From an uncultured Candidatus Saccharibacteria bacterium (lineage in GTDB: Bacteria > Patescibacteriota > SOKK01): a DNA stretch of 64,000 nt. Below the pieces are notes generated by a model, which saw only the letters and a program-made list of their open reading frames with translations, was not told the origin of the DNA and did not search any database. This document shows positions 3,375 through 60,129 of the stretch, piece after piece. The stretch covers positions 30,787-94,786 of the forward strand of contig CAZFJP010000010.1 in the NCBI GenBank assembly GCA_964518965.1, in the 5' to 3' direction. The position numbers and the translations under genes were made by a program. Position 1 is the stretch's first letter. Each line of letters opens with the position of its first letter.

Positions 3375-4121
3375 TTACTGAACTGAAGCGGTTTGGCGTT
3401 CAAAGAAAATTTCGCTTAAAGTTTTCAGAAAAACAGTACGTTGACCTTTTATTTGCTTAATTAATTTTTTAATGATGGTAGTGCTTTTGTTGAGGGAAAA
3501 AATCATAGGTGTTGCAGGAGAGTTCCATTGAGGTAATGAATAGTTAGTCTGAGTTTGAGTGGGAAGAATGTTTCTGGATGTTGATGGTTCGGTAATTACT
3601 CTCGTTGGAACACCAAGAAATTGAACAGTTAGAGCGGTAGTTTGTCCCTGGAAATTTCCCGTTTTGGTTGCAATGCCAATTTCCTGAAAGCGCGAATTTA
3701 AAATGTTAGCACGGTGGGTGGGGCTTGCCATCCACGCGTTGAACAAAACTTGATTGGTGATAAAGCCATTTGCCAAGTTTTCTCCAGCGCTTACATAGGA
3801 ATAGCCAACTGTTTTCATAAAGTACCAACCGGTTAGTCCTTGCGGGCTTATGTGGGCAAAGTATTGTTTTGCAAACATGTCATCTACTTTGCGGGAAGCG
3901 GCTTGAACTAAGAAGGGATTTACTCTTAAGGTATTAAGCCCGTGTTGAGTGCGAACTTGGTTGGTAAGGGAAGTTAAAACTGAGGCGTTAATTTGCGGGG
4001 GAATGGCGTAAGAGGCTTTAGCGCTATCGGCGAAGCGGGGGGTAAAAATAGTTACTAGAAGCAAAGTACTGATGATCAAAACACCCCATTTTTTTAATTT
4101 GGTTTGGTTTTGGTTTTTCAT
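3375..4121 (-). CDS. Secreted CAP/SCP/PR-1-like (YkwD-type) domain protein
   Basis: N-terminal signal/TM segment. C-terminal GENLANGFITNQVLFNAWMASPTHRANIL matches the CAP-domain core. Confidence 0.65.
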   Translation of the reverse strand: MKNQNQTKLKKWGVLIISTLLLVTIFTPRFADSAKASYAIPPQINASVLTSLTNQVRTQHGLNTLRVNPFLVQAASRKVDDMFAKQYFAHISPQGLTGWYFMKTVGYSYVSAGENLANGFITNQVLFNAWMASPTHRANILNSRFQEIGIATKTGNFQGQTTALTVQFLGVPTRVITEPSTSRNILPTQTQTNYSLPQWNSPATPMIFSLNKSTTIIKKLIKQIKGQRTVFLKTLSEIFFERQTASVQ

Positions 4122-4394
4122 TTTTATTCTTGTATGTAGCCTGTTTTATACGAGCCTGCTTGACGAACTTTGAGTGGAGTGGAGAAGTGAGTGTAGGGTA
4201 AGTAGTCAGATTACTTAATTATAACATAAAATCCGACTTCTGTAAATCCTGTGCCGTTCGGTACGGGGACAGGGAGTATAAACAGAAAGACAAAGAATCT
4301 TGCTAAATGGCAAGGGCGTTACTTTGAGAAATTTTGGTTAATGAAAAGCCGCCCTACGAAGAGGATTCGTATTAGTGGGCGGCTTATCGGGGGT

Positions 4395-5345
4395 TTATTT
4401 CCGCCGTTTTAACATCTCCTCTTGGGAGATGTATCTCCAGCCCCCCTTTTCGGGAGATCTGGAGGTGATGCGGGTTTTTTTCGGCGGAGCCGGTTCTTCC
4501 TCCACCGTGGTGGGAGTGGGGAGATAGACGTAGACGGGAGCGGGCGGTGACTGCTTCAGGAAGACAAAGTACTTGCCCTCCTTTGTCAGCCCCACTCCCG
4601 CGAGTTTGTCTCCTTTTCTGGGCTCGGCTACGGCGTAGAACCTGTCGAAGTTGGGAACCGTATAGACTTTATCTTCGGTCTCGATCCGACAAGTGTGGCC
4701 TTCGTAGGTCACCCTTGCGATCGTTCCCGTCAGGGCGACGGGAGAAGCGGCCGTTGCTGTTTCATCCGGCGCGAATGGCCCGGTCTCGTAGTAATAATTG
4801 ACTCCAAGCCAAGCACAAACGCCGGTCACGGCGAGGGCAATTACCGCGACTGCCCAGCCAGCGAGAGCCCACCGGAAGTTTCGTTTCCTTTTCCGGTTGG
4901 CTTCCCCGAGCTTTGCGCCGAGTTCTTTGGATTCGGCTTGCGCCTCATCCATTTTTTTCTCGGCAAAAGTAGCGGTCCCCTCGGCGGCTGCCTTTTGGGT
5001 GAGGAGGTCTTCCAACCGCTCGTTAAGAGCAGCGTTTTCCTCCCGAAGCTTGGCAAGAGTTTCCTTGTCAAGTTCTACTTCCTTGGAAACCCTTACCAAG
5101 TTGTTATTAGCGACTTCAAGGTCTTGCTCTAGCGCGGCGACTTTCTTGCCGGAGGTCTCGATCTCGGCGCGAGCCTCTCTGAGATGCACCGAGATGTCGT
5201 CGCGCTCGGCCTCGATGCGGCCGATTTTTTCGGTCGCGGCGACAAGTGCCGCTTTTTTTTCCTCCAGCTCTTGTTGGAGGCGGCGCAGTTCTTCTGCTGC
5301 CTTCTCAAGCTGCTGGAGGAGCAGCTCTTCCTTGTTATTTTCCAT
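4395..5345 (-). CDS. Hypothetical coiled-coil / single-TM protein encoded in a GC-rich island with foreign codon usage
   Basis: GC is about 60% against about 36% in the flanks, with GCC/GAG/CTC/CGC-rich codons. N-terminal 150 aa are predicted coiled coil, then a TM helix (WALAGWAVAVIALAVTGVCAWLGV), then a 140-aa C-terminal domain. ATG at 5345 is preceded by GGAGGT; the track's TTG start 12 nt upstream is less likely. Confidence 0.55.
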   Translation of the reverse strand: MENNKEELLLQQLEKAAEELRRLQQELEEKKAALVAATEKIGRIEAERDDISVHLREARAEIETSGKKVAALEQDLEVANNNLVRVSKEVELDKETLAKLREENAALNERLEDLLTQKAAAEGTATFAEKKMDEAQAESKELGAKLGEANRKRKRNFRWALAGWAVAVIALAVTGVCAWLGVNYYYETGPFAPDETATAASPVALTGTIARVTYEGHTCRIETEDKVYTVPNFDRFYAVAEPRKGDKLAGVGLTKEGKYFVFLKQSPPAPVYVYLPTPTTVEEEPAPPKKTRITSRSPEKGGWRYISQEEMLKRRK

Positions 5346-5447
5346 CTTGACCTCCAAAAATGAAAAATGAAAAAACTGTTAAAGTTCAGATTTCCTCTCT
5401 AATCTTTGGGTCTTTTTTATAAGATTTTCTTATCTAAAACGCCTTAT

Positions 5448-5483: not shown

Positions 5484-5512
5484 CTAAAAAATCCCTTTTG
5501 GAAGGGATTAAT
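5484..5512 (-). terminator. Rho-independent terminator downstream of tRNA-Met (stem atccctt/aagggat plus T-tract on the minus strand)
   Basis: Plus-strand sequence is ctaaaaaatcccttttggaagggatt. Confidence 0.45.
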
Positions 5513-5520
5513 ATAACAGC

Positions 5521-5640
5521 TAAAGGCAGAAGTCAAAAGGCAAAAAGCAAAAGTAGAGGTAAAAAGGTAAAAGCTTAGGCAGTTTCTTTTTACCTTTACT
5601 TTCGCTTTTATCTTTTGCTTTTTGATTTTTGCCTTTCGTC
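5521..5640. repeat. Copy A of an A-tract/T-tract palindromic repeat family (direct core CAAAAG[G/A]CAAAAAGCAAAAGTA plus its inverted partner), 3' of tRNA-Met
   Basis: Left arm 5522-5574 is A-rich and right arm 5585-5637 is its approximate reverse complement, giving a long imperfect hairpin. The 22-nt core at 5535-5556 recurs at 5754-5775 and 19332-19353. Confidence 0.5.
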
Positions 5641-5657
5641 CCGCGTAGCGGGACGAG

Positions 5658-5733
5658 TGGTGGGCTCGGTAGGAATTGAACCTACGACCAATCCCTTATG
5701 AGGGGACTGCTCTAACCGCTGAGCTACGAGCCC
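5658..5733 (-). tRNA. tRNA-Met (anticodon CAU), CCA encoded
   Basis: Cloverleaf drawn by hand: GGGCTCGTAGCTCAGCGGTTAGAGCAGTCCCCTCATAAGGGATTGGTCGTAGGTTCAATTCCTACCGAGCCCACCA. G1-C72 suggests an elongator (or lysidine tRNA-Ile) rather than the initiator. Confidence 0.85.
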
Positions 5734-5740
5734 AATAATA

Positions 5741-5870
5741 AAAGGCAAAAGTCAAAAGACAAAAAGCAAAAGTAAAGGTAAAAGTTAAAAATGGACAGGG
5801 TGGAAGTATCTATTTTTAGCTTTTTAATTTAATTTACTTTTGCCTTTTATCCTTTACCCTTTACCTTTTT
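5741..5870. repeat. Copy B of the palindromic repeat family, 5' of tRNA-Met
   Basis: Arm 5741-5787 is about 90% identical to arm 5522-5570 of copy A. Inverted partner cttttgccttttatcctttaccctttacc lies at 5838-5868. Confidence 0.45.
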
Positions 5871-6566
5871 TTATTTCGCAGTTGCTAAATTGTAATCTCC
5901 GTTATAGTGTTTTACAATTCCAGCATGATTCAATGGCCATGCACGCAGCCAAACTTTTCCGATAATATTGCAGCGGGCTAGCTCACCCCATTCACGAGAA
6001 TCAGACGATGCGTTCGGTTGACGGTTATCGCCAATGACAAAATAGTCATCAGCGTCTAATTCTTCTATTACTTCTCCTAGTGTTTCCCAATCGGCGGGGA
6101 TATATGGTTCTTTTAATTGTACACCTTTGGGATTTTCTTTATTGTAGATAATTATACGACCGTCGGAAACTTCTACTTTTTCACCTGGTAATCCGATAAT
6201 TCTTTTAATATAATTTTTGGAAGGATCTTTGGGGTAATTAAAAACGATTACGTCACCACGTTTAGGGGAGGTAAAACGATAACTGATTTCGTCAACAATT
6301 AAATATTCGCCATCTTTAAAGTTTGGTTCCATACTTTGACCCATTACGTAAAACGGCTGGATTAAGAAATAACGAATTAGGAAAACAATTACCAAAACAC
6401 TGATAACCGTTTCGGCAACTTCCATTACAAAATTGCCAACTGATTTTAAGAAATCGCCAAAGCCACCTTCTTCTTTTTTATCTAAATTAACAGTTTTCTT
6501 TTCTTCATAGAAAAAGCTTGGTTTTTTCTTTTCCTTATTTTTTTCAGATAACTTATTGTTTTTCAT
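5871..6566 (-). CDS. lepB: Signal peptidase I
   Basis: N-terminal TM, Ser box GQSMEP, Lys box KRIIGLPGE, and GDNR...SSDSR box. Confidence 0.85.
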   Translation of the reverse strand: MKNNKLSEKNKEKKKPSFFYEEKKTVNLDKKEEGGFGDFLKSVGNFVMEVAETVISVLVIVFLIRYFLIQPFYVMGQSMEPNFKDGEYLIVDEISYRFTSPKRGDVIVFNYPKDPSKNYIKRIIGLPGEKVEVSDGRIIIYNKENPKGVQLKEPYIPADWETLGEVIEELDADDYFVIGDNRQPNASSDSREWGELARCNIIGKVWLRAWPLNHAGIVKHYNGDYNLATAK

Positions 6567-6694: not shown

Positions 6695-6800
6695 CTTACC
6701 GGCAGGCAGGTAACCTCCGCCAAAGACGGACCTTCGTCAGAGGGCAAATGTGCTTCAGGAGCACGCCTCTGGCGGGAACTGAGCTATGAATCTCCCCAAG
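6695..6800. ncRNA. Candidate structured RNA of unknown identity (GC-rich multi-stem segment in an AT-rich spacer)
   Basis: Nested stems ttacc/ggtaa, ccgcc/ggcgg, cagagg/cctctg and gtgct/agcac. Strand and identity are undetermined; no tRNA, SRP-RNA or tmRNA motif was recognised. Confidence 0.2.
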
Positions 6801-9137: not shown

Positions 9138-9317
9138 AAAAGCCAACTGTGGATTATTTGACTTGATATCCCTTGCATTTAAGGTTTTTTTTGTTATAAT
9201 AAAGCCGTGTTAGAGATGAGTTTGAAAACCCTTGGTACAAAAAGATAAATTGTTCTGTATTGGTAGCAAAAATCGTTAGTTAATCATAATTTTCCCACGG
9301 GAAGGGGGTGAAAATTA

Positions 9318-16636: not shown

Positions 16637-16900
16637 ATGTACTTTGTTTACATCCTAGGAAGTTTTAAGGATAGTAAACTGTATATCGGTTTTACTTCAA
16701 GAGGTTTGAATCGTCTTGAAGAACATTTAAATTGAGAGGTAGAATCGACGAAATTCAGAAGGCCATTGAGATTAATTTGTTATGAAGCTTACCTGAAGCT
16801 TACCTATTGATGATTGGTGCACAAAATCGGGAGAAGTTTTTTAGATCGGGATGGGGAAGAGCTTATATTAATAAAAATCTGAAGCACACTTTAAGACTAC
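16637..16900 (+). pseudogene. Degraded GIY-YIG (COG2827-like, about 90-aa) nuclease gene beside tRNA-Gly
   Basis: MYFVYILGSFKDSKLYIGFTSRGLNRLEEHLN, then an in-frame TGA, then EVESTKFRRPLRLICYEAY (GIY-YIG core continues in the same frame), then a frameshift into KFFRSGWGRAYINKNLK. Confidence 0.45.
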
Positions 16901-19122: not shown

Positions 19123-19320
19123 ATGGAAATCAATCCTAAGATGAAAATTGAAGAAGTTTTGAAACTTCGTCCCAACGCACCAGCAATCATGATGGAATAT
19201 GGTTTTCCTTGTGTCGGTTGTCCTTTGGCGCAACTTGAGACGTTAGAGGATGGAGCGAAGAAACATGGAATTAGTGGCGAAAAATTTAGTCAGTTTTTAG
19301 AGGAGATTAACAATTGTTAA
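19123..19320 (+). CDS. DUF1858-like small redox protein (CxGC)
   Basis: MEINPKMKIEEVLKLRPNAPAIMMEYGFPCVGCPLAQLETLEDGAKKHGI. The alternative ATG at 19111 overlaps the upstream stop. Confidence 0.45.
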   Translation: MEINPKMKIEEVLKLRPNAPAIMMEYGFPCVGCPLAQLETLEDGAKKHGISGEKFSQFLEEINNC

Positions 19321-19465
19321 AGGCAAAATACAAAAGGCAAAAAGCAAAAGTAAAATCAGGAGGTAAAAGTAAACTATTATTTAGTTCAGGAAATAGATAA
19401 CCTAAACTTTTACTTTTTGCCTTCATTTTTGTCTTTTGATTTTTGCTTTTTGACTTTTAAGATTG
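19321..19465. repeat. Copy C of the palindromic repeat family
   Basis: Core caaaaggcaaaaagcaaaagta at 19332-19353. Inverted partner cttttactttttgccttcatttttgtcttttgatttttgctttttgactttt at 19406-19457. Confidence 0.45.
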
Positions 19466-19521
19466 TTTGTGTATAATAAAGCCGTAATGAGGCTTTGAGC
19501 CTTGTTTTTAAAAGAATTTAT

Positions 19522-20275: not shown

Positions 20276-20370
20276 ATGGTAGCAGATAGCAAATAGCAGA
20301 TATTTTTTGGTTGTCTGATATCTGTTATTTACTATTACTATTGTCCCGTCACTTTTTATTTATTACTACT

Positions 20371-22204: not shown

Positions 22205-22768
22205 ATGGCAGACGAAGTAAAGAAACCAGAAGAAGCAAAAAAACCTGAAGTAGAGGCTAAACCAGTTGAAGCTCCTAAACCGGAAGCAAAACCGGCGGAG
22301 GCTCCTAAAACTGAAGCTCTGAAGCCGGAAGCTGAACCAGCCGAGGCTCCGAAATCAGAAGCACCGAAAGAAGAACCGAAAAAAGAAGTTCCTGAGAAAT
22401 TCAAGAAACTTGTTGAAGAAGTGGAAAAAATGAGTGTCTTGGAACTTTCGGAGTTAGTTAAAGCATTAGAAGATCGTTTTGGGGTTTCGGCAGCTGCTCC
22501 TGTAGCGATGGTTGCCGGTGGTGCAGCAGGTGGTAGTGCAGGTGGTGAAGAAGAAAAAACAGAGTTTGATGTGGAGTTGACCGAAACTGGTGCACAAAAA
22601 ATTGCTGTTATCAAAGTTGTTCGCGAGATTACCGGTAAGGGTCTAAAAGAAGCAAAAGACATGGTTGATGGCGCACCAAAGGTGATTAAAGAAAAAGTGA
22701 AGAAAGAGGAAGCAGAAGAGATTAAGAAAAAGATTGAAGCTGCTGGCGGTAAAGTTACTTTGAAATAA
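22205..22768 (+). CDS. rplL: 50S ribosomal protein L7/L12 with a roughly 60-aa N-terminal Pro/Glu/Ala/Lys-rich extension
   Basis: The canonical N-terminal domain ([31 protein letters not shown]), hinge and C-terminal domain ([32 protein letters not shown]) are preceded by [29 protein letters not shown]... Confidence 0.9.
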
Positions 22769-25669: not shown

Positions 25670-25704
25670 ACACATACCGTGTTTCCCATAAGTAGCAAAT
25701 CTCT

Positions 25705-25732
25705 TGCATAGAAGCGATTTTTGTGCTATAAT
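25705..25732 (+). promoter_or_regulatory. Promoter TTGCAT-16-TGcTATAAT
   Basis: ttgcatagaagcgatttttgtgctataat, 25 nt upstream of the sortase gene. Confidence 0.4.
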
Positions 25733-25758
25733 AAGATAATAGAGTAACTGGGAGTTTT

Positions 25759-40204: not shown

Positions 40205-40420
40205 TTACCATTCGCCTAAGGTATTACCTTGTTTGTCTTTAAAGGATCCAGTTAAAATCATAATCACGTCCACTAACCAACCAATACCAAAGACTCCACC
40301 CGTGAGTAACCAAACGATACCAGTACCAATTTTACCCACATAGAAACGATGCACTCCTAGGCCTCCTAAAAAGAAGCATAAGAGAAAGACAATTAATCTC
40401 TTTTTTTCTTGTTCTGCCAT
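40205..40420 (-). CDS. TM2-domain small membrane protein
   Basis: [36 protein letters not shown]. Confidence 0.75.
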
Positions 40421-40440
40421 TTAGTTTTCACCTCCTTATA

Positions 40441-40538
40441 AACAAATTAAAAATTAAAAAGAGTAAAAATTAAAAAATAAGTCCGGATCTTCTAGGATTT
40501 AGTTTTTAAATTTTGATTTTTTAACTTTTAAGTTTTTT
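40441..40538. repeat. Copy E (diverged) of the A-tract/T-tract palindromic repeat family, 3' of tRNA-Gln
   Basis: aaattaaaaattaaaaagagtaaaaattaaaaaataag, centre agtccggatcttctaggattt, then ttagtttttaaattttgattttttaacttttaag. Confidence 0.3.
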
Positions 40539-40539
40539 A

Positions 40540-42086: not shown

Positions 42087-42692
42087 TTAATAATTTCTTC
42101 TCTCTTCCAATGATCTCGTTAAGGTTACTTCATCTGCATATTCCAAATCTCCTCCCATCGGTAGTCCCCTTGCAATGCGAGTCACTTTTAATCCTAACGG
42201 TTTAATTAATTTTGCAATATACATTGCGGTTGCTTCACCTTCTAAACTGGGATTAGTGGCGATAATTACTTCTTTGATTTCACCATTGTGTTTTTTGAGA
42301 GTTGTGAGAAGTTCTTTAATTTTTAATTCTTGTGGTCCGATTCCTTCCAATGGGGAAATTACTCCACCAAGAACATGATAGAGTCCTTTGTAATGATCGG
42401 TTTTCTCCAATGCAACAACGTCCATTGGTTCTTCAACGACACAAATCTTTGATTGATCGCGAGAAATATCACTACAAATCTGACAAGGATCACATTCAGC
42501 AATGTTAAAACAGCGAGAGCAAAAGACAAGGTTTTCTTGTAGGTCACAAACAGCTTTACTAAAGCTTTTTAAGTCGTCTTTTTTTGCTTTCAGTAAGTAA
42601 AAAGTCAACCGCTGAGCAGAACGAGGACCTATGCCTGGCAGTTTAGAAAACTCTTCTATTAGATTACGGACTGATTTAGGGATGAAGTTCAT
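42087..42692 (-). CDS. recR: Recombination protein RecR
   Basis: [17 protein letters not shown] HhH, C4 zinc finger ([16 protein letters not shown]), and Toprim domain. Confidence 0.9.
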
Positions 42693-42711
42693 GCGATAAA
42701 ACCAAAAATTA

Positions 42712-42823
42712 AAATGCAAAAAACAAAAGTAGAAGCAAAATTCAAAAATAAATTACCACTTAGCTTATAAATATATTTTTCTTTTTGCTTTCACTTTTGA
42801 TTTCTGATTTTTGCTTTTTGTAT
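42712..42823. repeat. Copy D of the palindromic repeat family (between ybaB and recR)
   Basis: gcaaaaaacaaaagtagaagcaaaattcaaaaataaa with inverted partner ttttgctttcacttttgatttctgatttttgctttttg. Confidence 0.4.
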
Positions 42824-43105
42824 TTATAATCCAAAATTCCCTATCATTCCCCTCATCTTCTTCGCGATTACTTTTTGGGATTCTTTGGTAGCTTTATTAA
42901 GGACGCTTTTTAACTTCTCACCTGTTTTTTCTTTATCCGAAAAATCAAAGTCATCATCAAAGCTGATGGATTGAATTTCCTGCGCGCCGTTCATTATGAC
43001 TTTAATACCATCATTTTGATATTCAATGATTTCCTCTTCCATTTGCTTTTTTAAAATCTGGGCTTGTTTTTGCATCTCGCGTATTTGTTGAAGTTTCTCA
43101 AACAT
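42824..43105 (-). CDS. ybaB: Nucleoid-associated protein YbaB/EbfC
   Basis: MFEKLQQIREMQKQAQILKKQMEEEI... Usual ybaB-recR pairing. Confidence 0.85.
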   Translation of the reverse strand: MFEKLQQIREMQKQAQILKKQMEEEIIEYQNDGIKVIMNGAQEIQSISFDDDFDFSDKEKTGEKLKSVLNKATKESQKVIAKKMRGMIGNFGL

Positions 43106-58644: not shown

Positions 58645-58764
58645 AAAAACTATGTTCTAATCTCCCCCTCTATTCTATTAAGACAGAAGATTGAAAGTGG
58701 AAAGTAGAAGGATGAAGAAAGTCGCTCTTCAATCTTCAAATTTTCAATCGTCGGATTTCAGATT

Positions 58765-59295
58765 TCATTCTTCAATTCCCTCACTGTTTTCTAATTCCTC
58801 AACCTTCGGCAACTCTTCAACACTACTTAATCCCAAATGCTTTAAAAAATTAATTGATGTTCCGTAAAGAATTGGTCTTCCCGGAGAATCTTTACGGCCT
58901 TTTTCTTCAATTAATCCTCTAATCATTAAATTGCGGATACTTTCGCCGGAGTGTACTCCTCTGATCTTATCAATTTCTACGCGGGTAATTGGTTGTTTAT
59001 AGGAAATAATTGCTAAAATCTCTAGTGCCGCTTGGCTTAAATCTCTTCTTAATTCCTCGTTGAAGAACTTAGCAATAATATCAGCGTTTTGGGGATTGGA
59101 AACTAATTGGTAATAATTATCTTTCGTTACGATATTAAAGCCATGTCCTTGAAATTCATTTTGAATCTCGCCCAATACTGTTTTTAGATCAGCTGTCGAT
59201 TCTTTGGTAATACTTTTGAGCTCGTTTAAACTAATTGGCTTTTCAGCAACAAATAAAATACTTTCAATGATTGATTTCAGGTTAGAATTACTCAT
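58765..59295 (-). CDS. scpB: Segregation and condensation protein B
   Basis: IIESILFVAEKPISLNELKSIT and tandem winged helices. Confidence 0.85.
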   Translation of the reverse strand: MSNSNLKSIIESILFVAEKPISLNELKSITKESTADLKTVLGEIQNEFQGHGFNIVTKDNYYQLVSNPQNADIIAKFFNEELRRDLSQAALEILAIISYKQPITRVEIDKIRGVHSGESIRNLMIRGLIEEKGRKDSPGRPILYGTSINFLKHLGLSSVEELPKVEELENSEGIEE

Positions 59296-60037: not shown

Positions 60038-60129
60038 ATGACTAAATGTAAAAAGTAAAAATCTTTCACAAACGGGATTCCGCTATGCGGGAAAATGAAA
60101 AGTGAAATCAAAATGCATTGGTTTTAAAC

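What the first reader, a model, noticed from the sequence alone, without database searches (positions are those of the whole stretch)
5521..5876. Dispersed family of A-tract/T-tract palindromic repeats, duplicated around tRNA-Met and recurring at four other loci
Seen in sequence. A roughly 45-nt A-rich unit with a 22-nt core CAAAAG(G/A)CAAAAAGCAAAAGTA occurs as direct copies at 5535-5556, 5754-5775 and 19332-19353. Each copy is followed within about 60 nt by an imperfect reverse-complement partner (5585-5637, 5838-5868, 19406-19457), so each locus forms a long hairpin of more than 100 nt. Diverged copies with the same arm/loop organisation lie at 42712-42823 (between ybaB and recR) and 40441-40538 (beside tRNA-Gln). 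Two copies bracket tRNA-Met in the pattern hairpin, tRNA, hairpin. All copies are intergenic, three of five touch a tRNA, and one abuts the GC-rich island. Inference: a miniature non-autonomous element (MITE or REP-like) or a family of structured bidirectional terminator/UP elements. A tRNA-targeting element would also explain the adjacent foreign island.
Basis: seen in the sequence. Interest (0 to 1): 0.55.

Follow-up and report, generated by a model that had tools for sequence, protein, structure and literature searches.

The report
Heptad-repeat hairpins filling intergenic spacers
The repeats are real: they are long A-rich/T-rich hairpin-forming palindromes built from 7-base units that fill the gaps between same-strand genes in a small Patescibacteria-like genome. 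They are best read as RNA-level punctuation (transcript-end hairpins), not as a tRNA-seeking jumping element.

Summary
The 22-nt core occurs three times and once more with 3 mismatches; shuffles give none. All five loci fold into long hairpins.

New here: each arm is a degenerate tandem array of 7-nt units (AAAAGGC, AAAAAGC, AAAAGTA, and their complement). Intergenic DNA of the window shows 7/14/21-nt periodicity even without these loci.

The A-rich arm is always 5' and the T-rich arm 3'. In 40 independent arrays from other phyla and viral contigs, the partner lay downstream in 19 and upstream in 1.

Each element fills the whole spacer between co-oriented genes, starting at a stop codon or just past a tRNA 3' end.

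In relatives the same spacers (lepB–tRNA-Met, ybaB–recR) again hold heptad palindromes, but with different unit number or sequence. One relative has an empty 5-nt spacer.

I found no target-site duplication, no fixed termini, no transposase, and no tRNA association outside this window. The "GC island" is a single coiled-coil/membrane ORF.

Best reading: a palindromic variant of the known but unexplained intergenic heptamer repeats of bacteria. They are probably transcribed and act as terminator/attenuator or 3'-end-protecting hairpins. Function is inferred, not shown. Moderate interest.

The parts
5522..5573 (.). Element A1, A-rich arm (heptad units AAAGGCA, GAAGTCA, AAAGGCA, AAAAGCA, AAAGTAG, AGGTAAA...). 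It contains the 22-nt core at 5534-5555.
5585..5636 (.). Element A1, T-rich arm, the imperfect complement of 5522-5573. The whole A1 hairpin spans 5514-5637.
   Evidence: (I12)
5637..5655 (-). Small GC hairpin CGTCCCGC-GTA-GCGGGACG between the tRNA-Met 3' end and A1.
5658..5733 (-). tRNA-Met (CAT), bracketed by A2 upstream and A1 downstream on its own strand.
5734..5873 (.). Element A2. A-arm 5734-5791 with the core at 5753-5774, loop about 5792-5811, T-arm 5812-5873. On the minus strand it starts at the lepB stop codon (5873-5871) and ends 1 nt before tRNA-Met.
   Evidence: (I6)
5484..5509 (-). Ordinary intrinsic terminator (AATCCCTTCCAAAAGGGATT plus TTTT) downstream of A1 on the minus strand. 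It is followed by promoter-like TTGACT-17-TATGAT at 5474-5446.
19318..19458 (.). Element B. It starts at the TAA of the DUF1858 gene. A-arm 19319-19375 with the core at 19331-19352; T-arm 19405-19458. Its last unit supplies the -35 TTGACT (19450-19455) of the secE-nusG promoter, whose -10 TATAAT is at 19472-19477.
40436..40539 (.). Element C, a diverged member with AAATTAA/TTTTAAN units. It lies between the tRNA-Gln 3' end and the Shine-Dalgarno sequence/ATG of the TM2-domain gene (minus strand).
42693..42826 (.). Element D. It fills the ybaB-recR spacer (minus strand), from the ybaB TAA to about 8 nt before the recR ATG at 42692.
20278..20330 (+). Short hairpin built from another heptad (TAGCAGA x3 plus partner) in the nusG-rplK spacer. 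Same construction with a different unit.
58682..58777 (.). Purine-rich heptads (GAAGATT, GAAAGTG...) followed by TCTTCAA heptads in the scpB-to-pseudouridine-synthase spacer. Same polarity, but the hairpin is not significant (z about -1).

Best explanation
The feature is two members (A1 and A2, either side of tRNA-Met) of a family of long imperfect palindromes. Their arms are degenerate tandem arrays of 7-nt units: A-rich in the 5' arm and the complementary T-rich units in the 3' arm. They are a palindromic variant of the intergenic heptameric repeats already recorded in cyanobacteria, Xanthomonas, Beggiatoaceae and Bacteroidetes.

Inferred mechanism: each element occupies a whole spacer between co-oriented genes and is transcribed with them. 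The RNA folds into a 40-55-bp, A·U-rich hairpin whose 3' arm is U-rich. This hairpin punctuates the transcript in three ways:
- It ends or attenuates transcription (B after the DUF1858 operon; the nusG-rplK hairpin).
- It leaves a protective 3'-terminal hairpin once the adjacent tRNA is excised. After RNase P cuts at tRNA-Met, A2 would be the 3' end of the lepB mRNA.
- It insulates neighbouring cistrons (D between ybaB and recR; C between tRNA-Gln and the TM2 gene).

At B the T-arm also supplies the -35 box and the T-rich upstream DNA of the next promoter.

The arrays are probably built and remodelled in place by slippage of 7-nt units, with exchange between arms and between loci. This would explain why A1, A2 and B share one unit order. 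They are not spread by tRNA-targeted transposition.

Shown: anatomy, periodicity, polarity, folding, and positional conservation with sequence turnover. Inferred: transcription through the elements, and any effect on termination, processing or stability. The confidence given covers the whole statement: the identity (heptad-array palindromes, not a MITE) is about 0.8, and the RNA-level function about 0.4.
For: - Period 7/14 in every arm. Intergenic DNA shows lag-7/14/21 autocorrelation even without the five loci, while coding DNA shows only lag 3.
- Hairpins are significant against dinucleotide shuffles and against unit-permuted arms.
- Polarity is strict. Every window element and every orthologue has the A-arm 5'. 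In 40 independent arrays from other genomes, metagenomes and viral contigs, the reverse-complement partner lay downstream in 19 and upstream in 1. A stricter pattern gave 12 versus 0. This is the geometry of a hairpin with a U-rich 3' side on either strand.
- The elements start at the stop codon (lepB, DUF1858, ybaB) or within a few nt to ~20 nt of the tRNA 3' end (C and A1). They end 1-25 nt before the next gene, leaving no room for a promoter at A2, C and D. They must therefore lie inside transcripts.
- The whole tRNA-Met region folds as A2 hairpin, cloverleaf, GC hairpin, A1 hairpin, canonical terminator.
- Structure is kept while sequence changes. The lepB-tRNA-Met spacer holds a heptad palindrome in all three species examined, with AAAAGGY units or GTTCAAA units. 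The ybaB-recR spacer holds one in four of five relatives.
- Where B is missing in relatives, another hairpin followed by a T-rich stretch sits in front of the conserved -35.
- The sense-strand RNA is the more stable strand in 8 of 10 hairpins. G·U-compatible mismatches favour the sense strand 21 to 10.
- Published background: heptameric repeats are over-represented in bacterial intergenic DNA and are kept between the same genes in close relatives, with variable length and sequence; slippage has been proposed; inverted arrays are noted in Xanthomonas (PMC4692102; also PMC4679880 and bioRxiv 10.1101/2022.06.06.494920).
Against: - There are no expression data, so transcription, termination and processing are all inferred.
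- The stems are A·U-rich with 11-40-nt loops, unlike efficient intrinsic terminators. The organism has ordinary GC-stem/U-tail terminators at convergent sites, and one sits right after A1. A1 therefore looks redundant as a terminator.
- The two elements that follow tRNAs (A1 and C) fold better on the antisense strand.
- The strand bias is weak statistically, and the orthologues are not independent.
- The element is dispensable at ybaB-recR: one relative has a 5-nt spacer.
- A1, B and C are not conserved in relatives.
- Gene contexts of the elements in other phyla look mixed, including some apparently divergent gene pairs. This rests on rough ORF and GC-phase calls only.
Confidence: 0.5

Rival explanations
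1. Non-autonomous mobile element (MITE-like), possibly with a preference for tRNA flanks.
For: - A1, A2 and B share an exact 22-mer and the same order of five units over about 42 nt.
- An empty site exists at ybaB-recR in one relative.
- Similar arrays occur in many phyla and in viral contigs.
Against: - Termini are not conserved, and arm length and unit number vary.
- No direct repeat flanks the elements beyond the palindrome itself.
- Orthologous spacers carry palindromes made of different units, rather than the same element or none.
- No transposase, RAYT or integrase appears in 30 window ORFs.
- No tRNA lies beside any of the 21 genome hits.
Confidence: 0.1
2. DNA-level element. The 7-bp units form arrays of binding sites for a double-strand DNA-binding protein, as the omega/ParR-type ribbon-helix-helix proteins bind 7-bp heptads in direct and inverted arrays. 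Alternatively the T-arrays act as upstream (UP-like) or -35-providing promoter DNA.
For: - The 7-bp register with direct and inverted arrangement matches heptad operators (own knowledge of pSM19035 omega).
- At B, and in relative L028, T-heptads run into and supply the -35 TTGACT of a strong promoter.
- A Nostoc study reports that heptamer arrays modulate promoter activity (bioRxiv 10.1101/2022.06.06.494920).
Against: - At A2, C and D there is no promoter downstream of the T-arm.
- The spacing between arms varies from 0 to about 200 nt.
- The same units occur in unrelated phyla, which would need a shared protein.
- Mirror-order complementarity of the arms is not required for protein arrays.
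- The strict A-to-T order has no obvious reason on double-stranded DNA.
Confidence: 0.15
3. No function. The arrays are a by-product of polymerase slippage on 7-nt units in dispensable spacers, and fold-back or template-switch repair makes them palindromic.
For: - Unit number and type turn over rapidly between close relatives.
- Some sites are empty or lost.
- Intergenic DNA has a general 7-nt periodicity.
- Slippage has been proposed in the literature (PMC4692102).
- Unpaired arrays also exist.
Against: - A neutral process does not predict the strict A-arm-first polarity.
- Hairpins persist at the same spacers while their sequence is replaced.
- These AT-rich arrays persist in genomes of 55-67% GC.
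- The A locus is identical in three assemblies, so it is not hypervariable on short time scales. The samples may not be independent.
Confidence: 0.2
4. Protein-controlled RNA switch. The U-rich heptads are tandem sites for a single-strand-binding protein that covers 6-7 nt per domain (cold-shock proteins, S1). Binding melts the hairpin, so termination or processing depends on the protein's concentration.
For: - The 7-nt register matches the footprint of cold-shock domains, which prefer T/U-rich heptamers (cited in PMC4679880).
- The T-arm contains GTCTTTT-like units.
- The hairpins are weak (A·U-rich) and so could be melted.
Against: - This is purely by analogy; no such protein was examined here.
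- By my recollection, cyanobacteria, which carry the same arrays, lack CspA-type proteins.
- Other heptad types in the same genome (TAGCAGA, GTTCAAA) are not U-rich.
Confidence: 0.05

Closest known systems
Intergenic heptameric tandem repeats of bacteria (STRR of Calothrix/Nostoc; GGGAATC of Xanthomonas; TAACTGA of Beggiatoaceae, cyanobacteria and Bacteroidetes; TTTTGAA arrays of Nostoc)
   Same: 7-nt unit. Strictly intergenic. Often abuts a start or stop codon. The position between the same genes is kept in relatives while length and sequence vary. Occasional inverted arrays occur. Function is unresolved (PMC4692102, PMC4679880, bioRxiv 10.1101/2022.06.06.494920).
   Different: Here the units are degenerate (72-82% matches) rather than near-perfect. 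The arrays are regularly paired as A-arm, loop, T-arm with fixed polarity. The host is a Patescibacteria-like genome, where I found no report of them.
REP / BIME / REPIN extragenic palindromes
   Same: Dispersed extragenic hairpin-forming repeats inside operons. Known REP roles (3'-end protection of the upstream mRNA, modulation of the neighbouring cistron) are what I infer here.
   Different: REPs are 20-40 nt, GC-rich, have a conserved sequence and are linked to RAYT transposases. These elements are 75-140 nt, AT-rich and built of heptads, and no RAYT was seen.
Transcribed MITE hairpins (Correia elements of Neisseria, ERIC, RUP/BOX)
   Same: 100-150-nt intergenic inverted-repeat units, co-transcribed with neighbours. 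They can carry promoter or terminator activity and RNase III sites (own knowledge).
   Different: Those have defined terminal inverted repeats, target-site duplications and near-identical copies. None of these was found here.
Bidirectional intrinsic terminators (A-tract, hairpin, U-tract)
   Same: The order A-rich 5' then T-rich 3' holds on both strands. B and the nusG-rplK hairpin lie where transcription units end.
   Different: The stems are A·U-rich with large loops. Several lie inside operons with no downstream promoter. The genome also has ordinary terminators.
Intercistronic RNase III processing hairpins (phage T7 early mRNA; rRNA operon stems)
   Same: Long imperfect hairpins between cistrons or beside stable RNAs, which leave a protective 3' hairpin after cleavage (own knowledge).
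   Different: No cleavage data exist and no sequence relation was found. This is an analogy only.
Heptad operator/centromere arrays bound by omega (pSM19035) and related ribbon-helix-helix proteins
   Same: 7-bp units in contiguous direct and inverted arrays.
   Different: Those are plasmid promoter/partition sites with a dedicated protein and a different unit (WATCACW). No such protein was identified here.

Membership tests
MITE | Terminal inverted repeats with conserved termini shared by the copies | tested here: not met
   The arms are heptad arrays of variable length. The outer ends of A1, A2, B and D differ, and only an internal 22-42 nt stretch is shared.
MITE | Target-site duplication flanking each copy | tested here: inconclusive
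   By inspection, no direct repeat is separable from the palindrome itself at A1, A2, B or D. The low-complexity flanks make a 2-4-nt duplication hard to exclude.
MITE | Presence/absence polymorphism at orthologous sites | tested here: met
   The ybaB-recR spacer is 5 nt in L062 against 73-137 nt in three relatives. B is absent in L027.
MITE | Cognate transposase in the genome | tested here: inconclusive
   None among 30 window ORFs scanned with Pfam. The rest of the genome is not available.
REP/REPIN | Short (20-40 nt) GC-rich imperfect palindrome with a conserved sequence | tested here: not met
   The elements are 75-140 nt, 72-82% A+T, and variable in sequence.
REP/REPIN | Associated RAYT (Y1 transposase) | tested here: inconclusive
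   Not seen in the window. Could not be tested genome-wide.
Intergenic heptameric repeat arrays (STRR-like) | Tandem units of 7 nt | tested here: met
   TRF finds period 7 (and 14) in every arm, 3.4-7.7 copies, 71-82% matches. Autocorrelation peaks at lags 7, 14 and 21.
Intergenic heptameric repeat arrays (STRR-like) | Confined to intergenic DNA, often abutting start or stop codons | tested here: met
   All loci are intergenic. They start at TAA stop codons or within ~20 nt of tRNA 3' ends and end 1-25 nt before the next gene.
Intergenic heptameric repeat arrays (STRR-like) | Same spacer occupied in close relatives, with different length and sequence | tested here: met
   lepB-tRNA-Met: window, L048, L049. 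ybaB-recR: window, L024, L025, L063.
Intrinsic (bidirectional) terminator | Hairpin with a U-rich 3' side on the transcribed strand(s) | tested here: met
   A-arm 5' and T-arm 3' in every case: 19 versus 1 in other genomes, 12 versus 0 with the strict pattern.
Intrinsic (bidirectional) terminator | Compact GC-rich stem with a 3-8-nt loop directly followed by a U-tract | tested here: not met
   Stems are A·U-rich with one G·C per heptad, and loops are 11-40 nt. The consensus scan does not call them, whereas it does call ordinary terminators nearby.
Intrinsic (bidirectional) terminator | Located at the end of a transcription unit, followed by a promoter or a convergent gene | tested here: inconclusive
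   True for B (promoter at 19450-19477), and A1 is followed by a promoter. False for A2, C and D, where the next gene starts 1-25 nt after the T-arm.
Intrinsic (bidirectional) terminator | Measured termination activity | not testable with these tools
   No transcriptome or in vitro data.
Any Rfam RNA family | Covariance-model score at or above the gathering threshold | tested here: not met
   Only tRNAs and the L10 leader pass. In E-value mode the loci give sub-threshold matches to generic long hairpins such as plant miRNA precursors.

The most novel reading that the evidence does not exclude
(AAAAGGC)n-loop-(GCCTTTT)n 'heptad palindromes' may be a distinct cis-element class with fixed polarity. 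They occur in Patescibacteria, Acidobacteriota, Cyanobacteria, Chloroflexota, Bacteroidota and phage contigs, including genomes of 55-67% GC. On this reading, a component common to all bacteria (RNA polymerase with NusA/NusG, or a 7-nt-footprint single-strand binder) reads them as a factor-tunable bidirectional terminator or insulator. That would give the long-unexplained excess of heptameric repeats in bacterial intergenic DNA a function.
Probability: 0.15. Interest if true: 0.75.

Novelty: new variant of a known kind. Interest (0 to 1): 0.42.

Why it matters
Heptameric repeats have been known since 1990 in cyanobacteria and since 2007 as a general excess in bacterial intergenic DNA. Their role remains open.

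This window adds three points:
- They are a regular building material of spacers in a minimal Patescibacteria-type genome, where little DNA is spare.
- They are organised as palindromes with a strict A-first, T-second polarity, which also holds across distant phyla and phages.
- Hairpins are retained at given spacers while their units are replaced.

Polarity together with structural retention argues for an RNA-level role and makes the question testable with Term-seq or reporters that swap the arm order.

If the elements have no role, the result still matters for annotation. They are not MITEs, not tRNA-targeted, and not markers of an integrated island.

Tried and rejected
- **tRNA targeting:** ARAGORN on 21 loci from other genomes found no tRNA next to the element. 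Three of five in this window is within chance.
- **Foreign island:** the GC-rich ORF has no Pfam hit. It is a coiled-coil/membrane protein with no integrase. In a relative, another unknown ORF sits in the same slot.
- **Known RNA family:** nothing in Rfam.
- **Stem enclosing tRNA-Met:** the A1 T-arm is 78% complementary to the A2 A-arm (I2). The full transcript nevertheless prefers the two local hairpins.
- **Promoter for tRNA-Met inside A2:** TTGTCT-16-TATTAT is also present in L049, but its -10 ends 1-2 nt before the mature 5' end, so initiation would fall inside the tRNA. Rejected.
- **Literature search for the sequence strings:** no paper contains them. Searches for Patescibacteria repeats found nothing specific.
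- **Copy count in the source genome:** the metagenome scan did not return the window's own contig. Only about 64 kb of this genome was available, so genome-wide copy number is unknown.
- **Gene orientation around elements in other phyla:** crude ORF and GC-phase calls gave mixed, unreliable contexts.
- **58682-58777 array pair:** same polarity, but the hairpin is not significant.
- **Strain-level unit-number variation:** three assemblies are identical over the A locus, but they may come from one population.
- **First unit-shuffle script:** it timed out and was rerun.
Full report
**What is there**

The window is a gene-dense, 38% GC stretch. Its best protein matches are Patescibacteria/CPR MAG proteins. 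It is the same sequence as JGI contig Ga0136652_1000062.

The reported 22-nt core is exact at 5534-5555, 5753-5774 and 19331-19352. A copy with 3 mismatches lies at 42710-42731. Shuffles give no match. The three good copies share about 58 nt at 79% identity, with the same order of units.

Each copy is followed by an imperfect reverse-complement arm, and every locus folds into a long hairpin. When the units are permuted inside each arm, the real order still folds better in all five window loci (z -2.3 to -4.4). The arms are therefore true mirror images.

Tandem Repeats Finder reports period 7 (and 14) for every arm: AAAAGGC x4.7-7.7, AAAGGCA x4.6, TTTTGAC x4.6, TTTTGCT x3.4-6.7, AAATTAA x5.

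Intergenic DNA of the window has autocorrelation peaks at lags 7, 14 and 21. These remain after the five loci are removed. Coding DNA shows only the lag-3 signal.

Other spacers hold other heptads:
- TAGCAGA x3 with a partner forms a significant hairpin between nusG and rplK.
- AATGGRG x4.6 occurs as a direct array.
- A GAAG.../TCTTCAA pair has only weak pairing.
- A-heptads surround a small GC hairpin at about 60048-60116 with no T-arm.

**Context**

All five elements lie between co-oriented genes and fill the spacer.

On the minus strand the order is: tRNA-Val, 27 nt, lepB, A2, tRNA-Met, a small GC hairpin, A1, an ordinary terminator (5509-5484), then a promoter (5474-5446) for the next ORF. 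A2 starts at the lepB stop codon and ends 1 nt before tRNA-Met.

D runs from the ybaB stop codon to about 8 nt before the recR ATG. C runs from the tRNA-Gln 3' end to the Shine-Dalgarno sequence of a TM2-domain gene. At these three sites there is no room for a promoter, so the elements must be inside transcripts.

B starts at the stop codon of a DUF1858 gene. Its last T-unit is the -35 TTGACT of a near-consensus promoter for secE-nusG-rplKAJL.

The organism also has ordinary GC-stem/U-tail terminators at convergent sites.

**Relatives**

- **ybaB-recR spacer.** In genomes whose RecR is 95% and 84% identical, this spacer again holds an A-heptad/T-heptad palindrome, but with different unit number and sequence (137 and 73 nt, against 131 nt here). 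One has a GC hairpin nested in the A-arm. A 66% relative has a 96-nt palindrome of AAGTTNN units. An 80% relative has an empty 5-nt spacer.
- **lepB-tRNA-Met spacer.** It holds a 115-nt AAAAGGT/AAAAGTN palindrome in an 82% relative. In a 92% relative it holds a short palindrome of a different unit (GTTCAAA/CTTTGRA).
- **A1** is absent in both of those relatives. There, NCAAGTN heptads flank a GC palindrome (CCTGCCGGCAGGCAGG) ahead of an ordinary terminator.
- **B** is absent in an 82% relative (other hairpins, promoter kept). In an 86% relative it is reduced to T-heptads running into the -35.
- **C** is absent where gene order differs.

Some spacers therefore always carry a hairpin, but its sequence turns over quickly. 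Other copies come and go.

**Beyond this lineage**

The exact 22-mer occurs in 21 loci of the species-representative genome set and 18 metagenome loci. These come from Nostoc/Aliinostoc/Crocosphaera, Blastocatellia and other Acidobacteriota (up to 67% GC), Chloroflexota, Bacteroidales/Flavobacteriia, 'Heliomicrobium' MAGs and Candidatus Buchananbacteria. (GCAAAAG)3 occurs in 12 viral contigs.

Many of these are again an A-array, a spacer of 0-200 nt (sometimes holding GC hairpins), then a T-array. In 40 independent arrays with sequence on both sides, the reverse-complement partner was downstream in 19 and upstream in 1. A stricter pattern gave 12 versus 0.

None sits next to a tRNA.

I could not decide whether the cross-phylum identity reflects convergence of slippage-prone units or transfer.

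**Interpretation**

The anatomy places the elements with the intergenic heptameric repeats already described in cyanobacteria, Xanthomonas, Beggiatoaceae and Bacteroidetes. Those repeats are kept between the same genes in close relatives with variable length and sequence, occasionally occur as inverted arrays, and have no established function. Polymerase slippage has been proposed as their origin (PMC4692102, PMC4679880, bioRxiv 10.1101/2022.06.06.494920).

Four features fit an RNA-level role as a hairpin with a U-rich 3' side:
- the regular palindromic pairing;
- the strict A-first polarity;
- a start at stop codons;
- retention of a hairpin despite unit replacement.

The role would differ by site. 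At B and at the nusG-rplK hairpin it would be a terminator or attenuator; E. coli has the nusG terminator at the corresponding place (own knowledge). At A2 it would be a 3'-terminal protective hairpin once RNase P releases tRNA-Met. At C and D it would be an insulator between cistrons.

There is a modest strand signal. The sense RNA is the more stable strand in 8 of 10 hairpins, and G·U-compatible mismatches favour the sense strand 21 to 10. A1 and C, both lying 3' of tRNAs, are the exceptions.

Against a simple terminator: the stems are A·U-rich with large loops, ordinary terminators exist in the same genome, and one sits directly after A1.

**Rivals**

- **MITE.** The shared 22-42-nt block and the empty site speak for it. 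Variable ends, no separable target-site duplication, different units at orthologous sites, no transposase in 30 ORFs scanned and no tRNA link speak against it.
- **DNA-level heptad operator or UP-like DNA.** It fits B but not A2, C or D.
- **Neutral slippage by-product.** It explains the turnover, but not the polarity or the retained hairpins.
- **Cold-shock/S1-controlled melting switch.** It rests on analogy only.

**The 'GC-rich island'**

It is one ORF (4395-5357, minus strand). It encodes a coiled-coil protein with a membrane segment, has its own promoter and has no integrase. In a close relative a different unknown ORF occupies the slot. It is not explained by the repeats.

**Verdict**

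The feature is real and more general than reported. It is best classed as a palindromic, degenerate variant of bacterial intergenic heptamer repeats, probably acting as transcribed hairpin punctuation. It is not a tRNA-targeting MITE. Identity is well supported; function is inferred.

Noticed in passing
window 6695-6714; L024 9885-9906; L048 about 4290-4312; L049 about 4088-4112: A second, GC-rich palindrome family (TACCTGCC-GGCA-GGCAGGTA and variants). It lies beside tRNA-Val in the window, is nested in the A-arm of the ybaB-recR element of a relative, and follows tRNA-Met in two relatives, where it is flanked by NCAAGTN heptads. It looks REP-like.
   Followed up: partly
window 4395-5357 (minus strand): A 51% GC ORF in a 38% GC genome. 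It is a coiled-coil protein with one membrane segment and a Pro-rich tail; it has no Pfam domain here and a weak CCDC39 hit in the precomputed table. A different 181-aa unknown ORF occupies the same slot in relative L048, so this is a variable gene slot and not an integrase island.
   Followed up: partly
window 6670-5658 (minus strand); L048 3261-4263; L049 3099-4067: The order tRNA-Val, lepB, tRNA-Met is conserved, with only 27 nt between tRNA-Val and lepB. The lepB mRNA is probably released by tRNA processing on both sides.
   Followed up: partly
window about 16637-16735; L025 12440-12880: A short GIY-YIG-like ORF remnant (MYFVYILGSFKDSKLYIGFTS...) lies just after tRNA-Gly. In a relative, a similar small ORF sits between a partial duplicate of tRNA-Gln and the intact tRNA-Gln, which suggests homing-endonuclease activity at tRNA genes.
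   Followed up: no
window 42692 (recR start, minus strand): recR has no recognisable Shine-Dalgarno sequence; the T-arm ends about 8 nt before the ATG (TTTTATCGCATG). The TM2 gene at 40420, by contrast, has a full AAGGAGGTGA. The mechanical ORF call (TTG at 42719) overextends recR by 9 codons compared with the 201-aa homologues.
   Followed up: partly
window 22267-22369: A 45-nt tandem repeat (2.3 copies, score 129) lies inside the ORF after rplJ. It encodes an Ala/Pro/Glu/Lys-rich stretch, probably an expanded hinge of ribosomal protein L7/L12.
   Followed up: no
L027 11847-14010: In a relative, a thymidylate synthase-like gene and a thymidylate kinase gene are inserted between rplA and rplJ. 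This splits the usual rplKAJL cluster, which is intact in the window.
   Followed up: no
window 9173-9208, 19450-19485, 25700-25735: Promoters in this genome look strongly sigma-70-like with an extended -10. Two of them (9173 and 19450) also share the sequence TATAATAAAGCCGT downstream of the -35.
   Followed up: no
L053 2930-3013; L061 12062-12103: Some viral contigs carry long perfect (AAAAGGC)n arrays of up to about 14 units with no partner arm. Perfect and degenerate/palindromic forms therefore coexist in nature.
   Followed up: no
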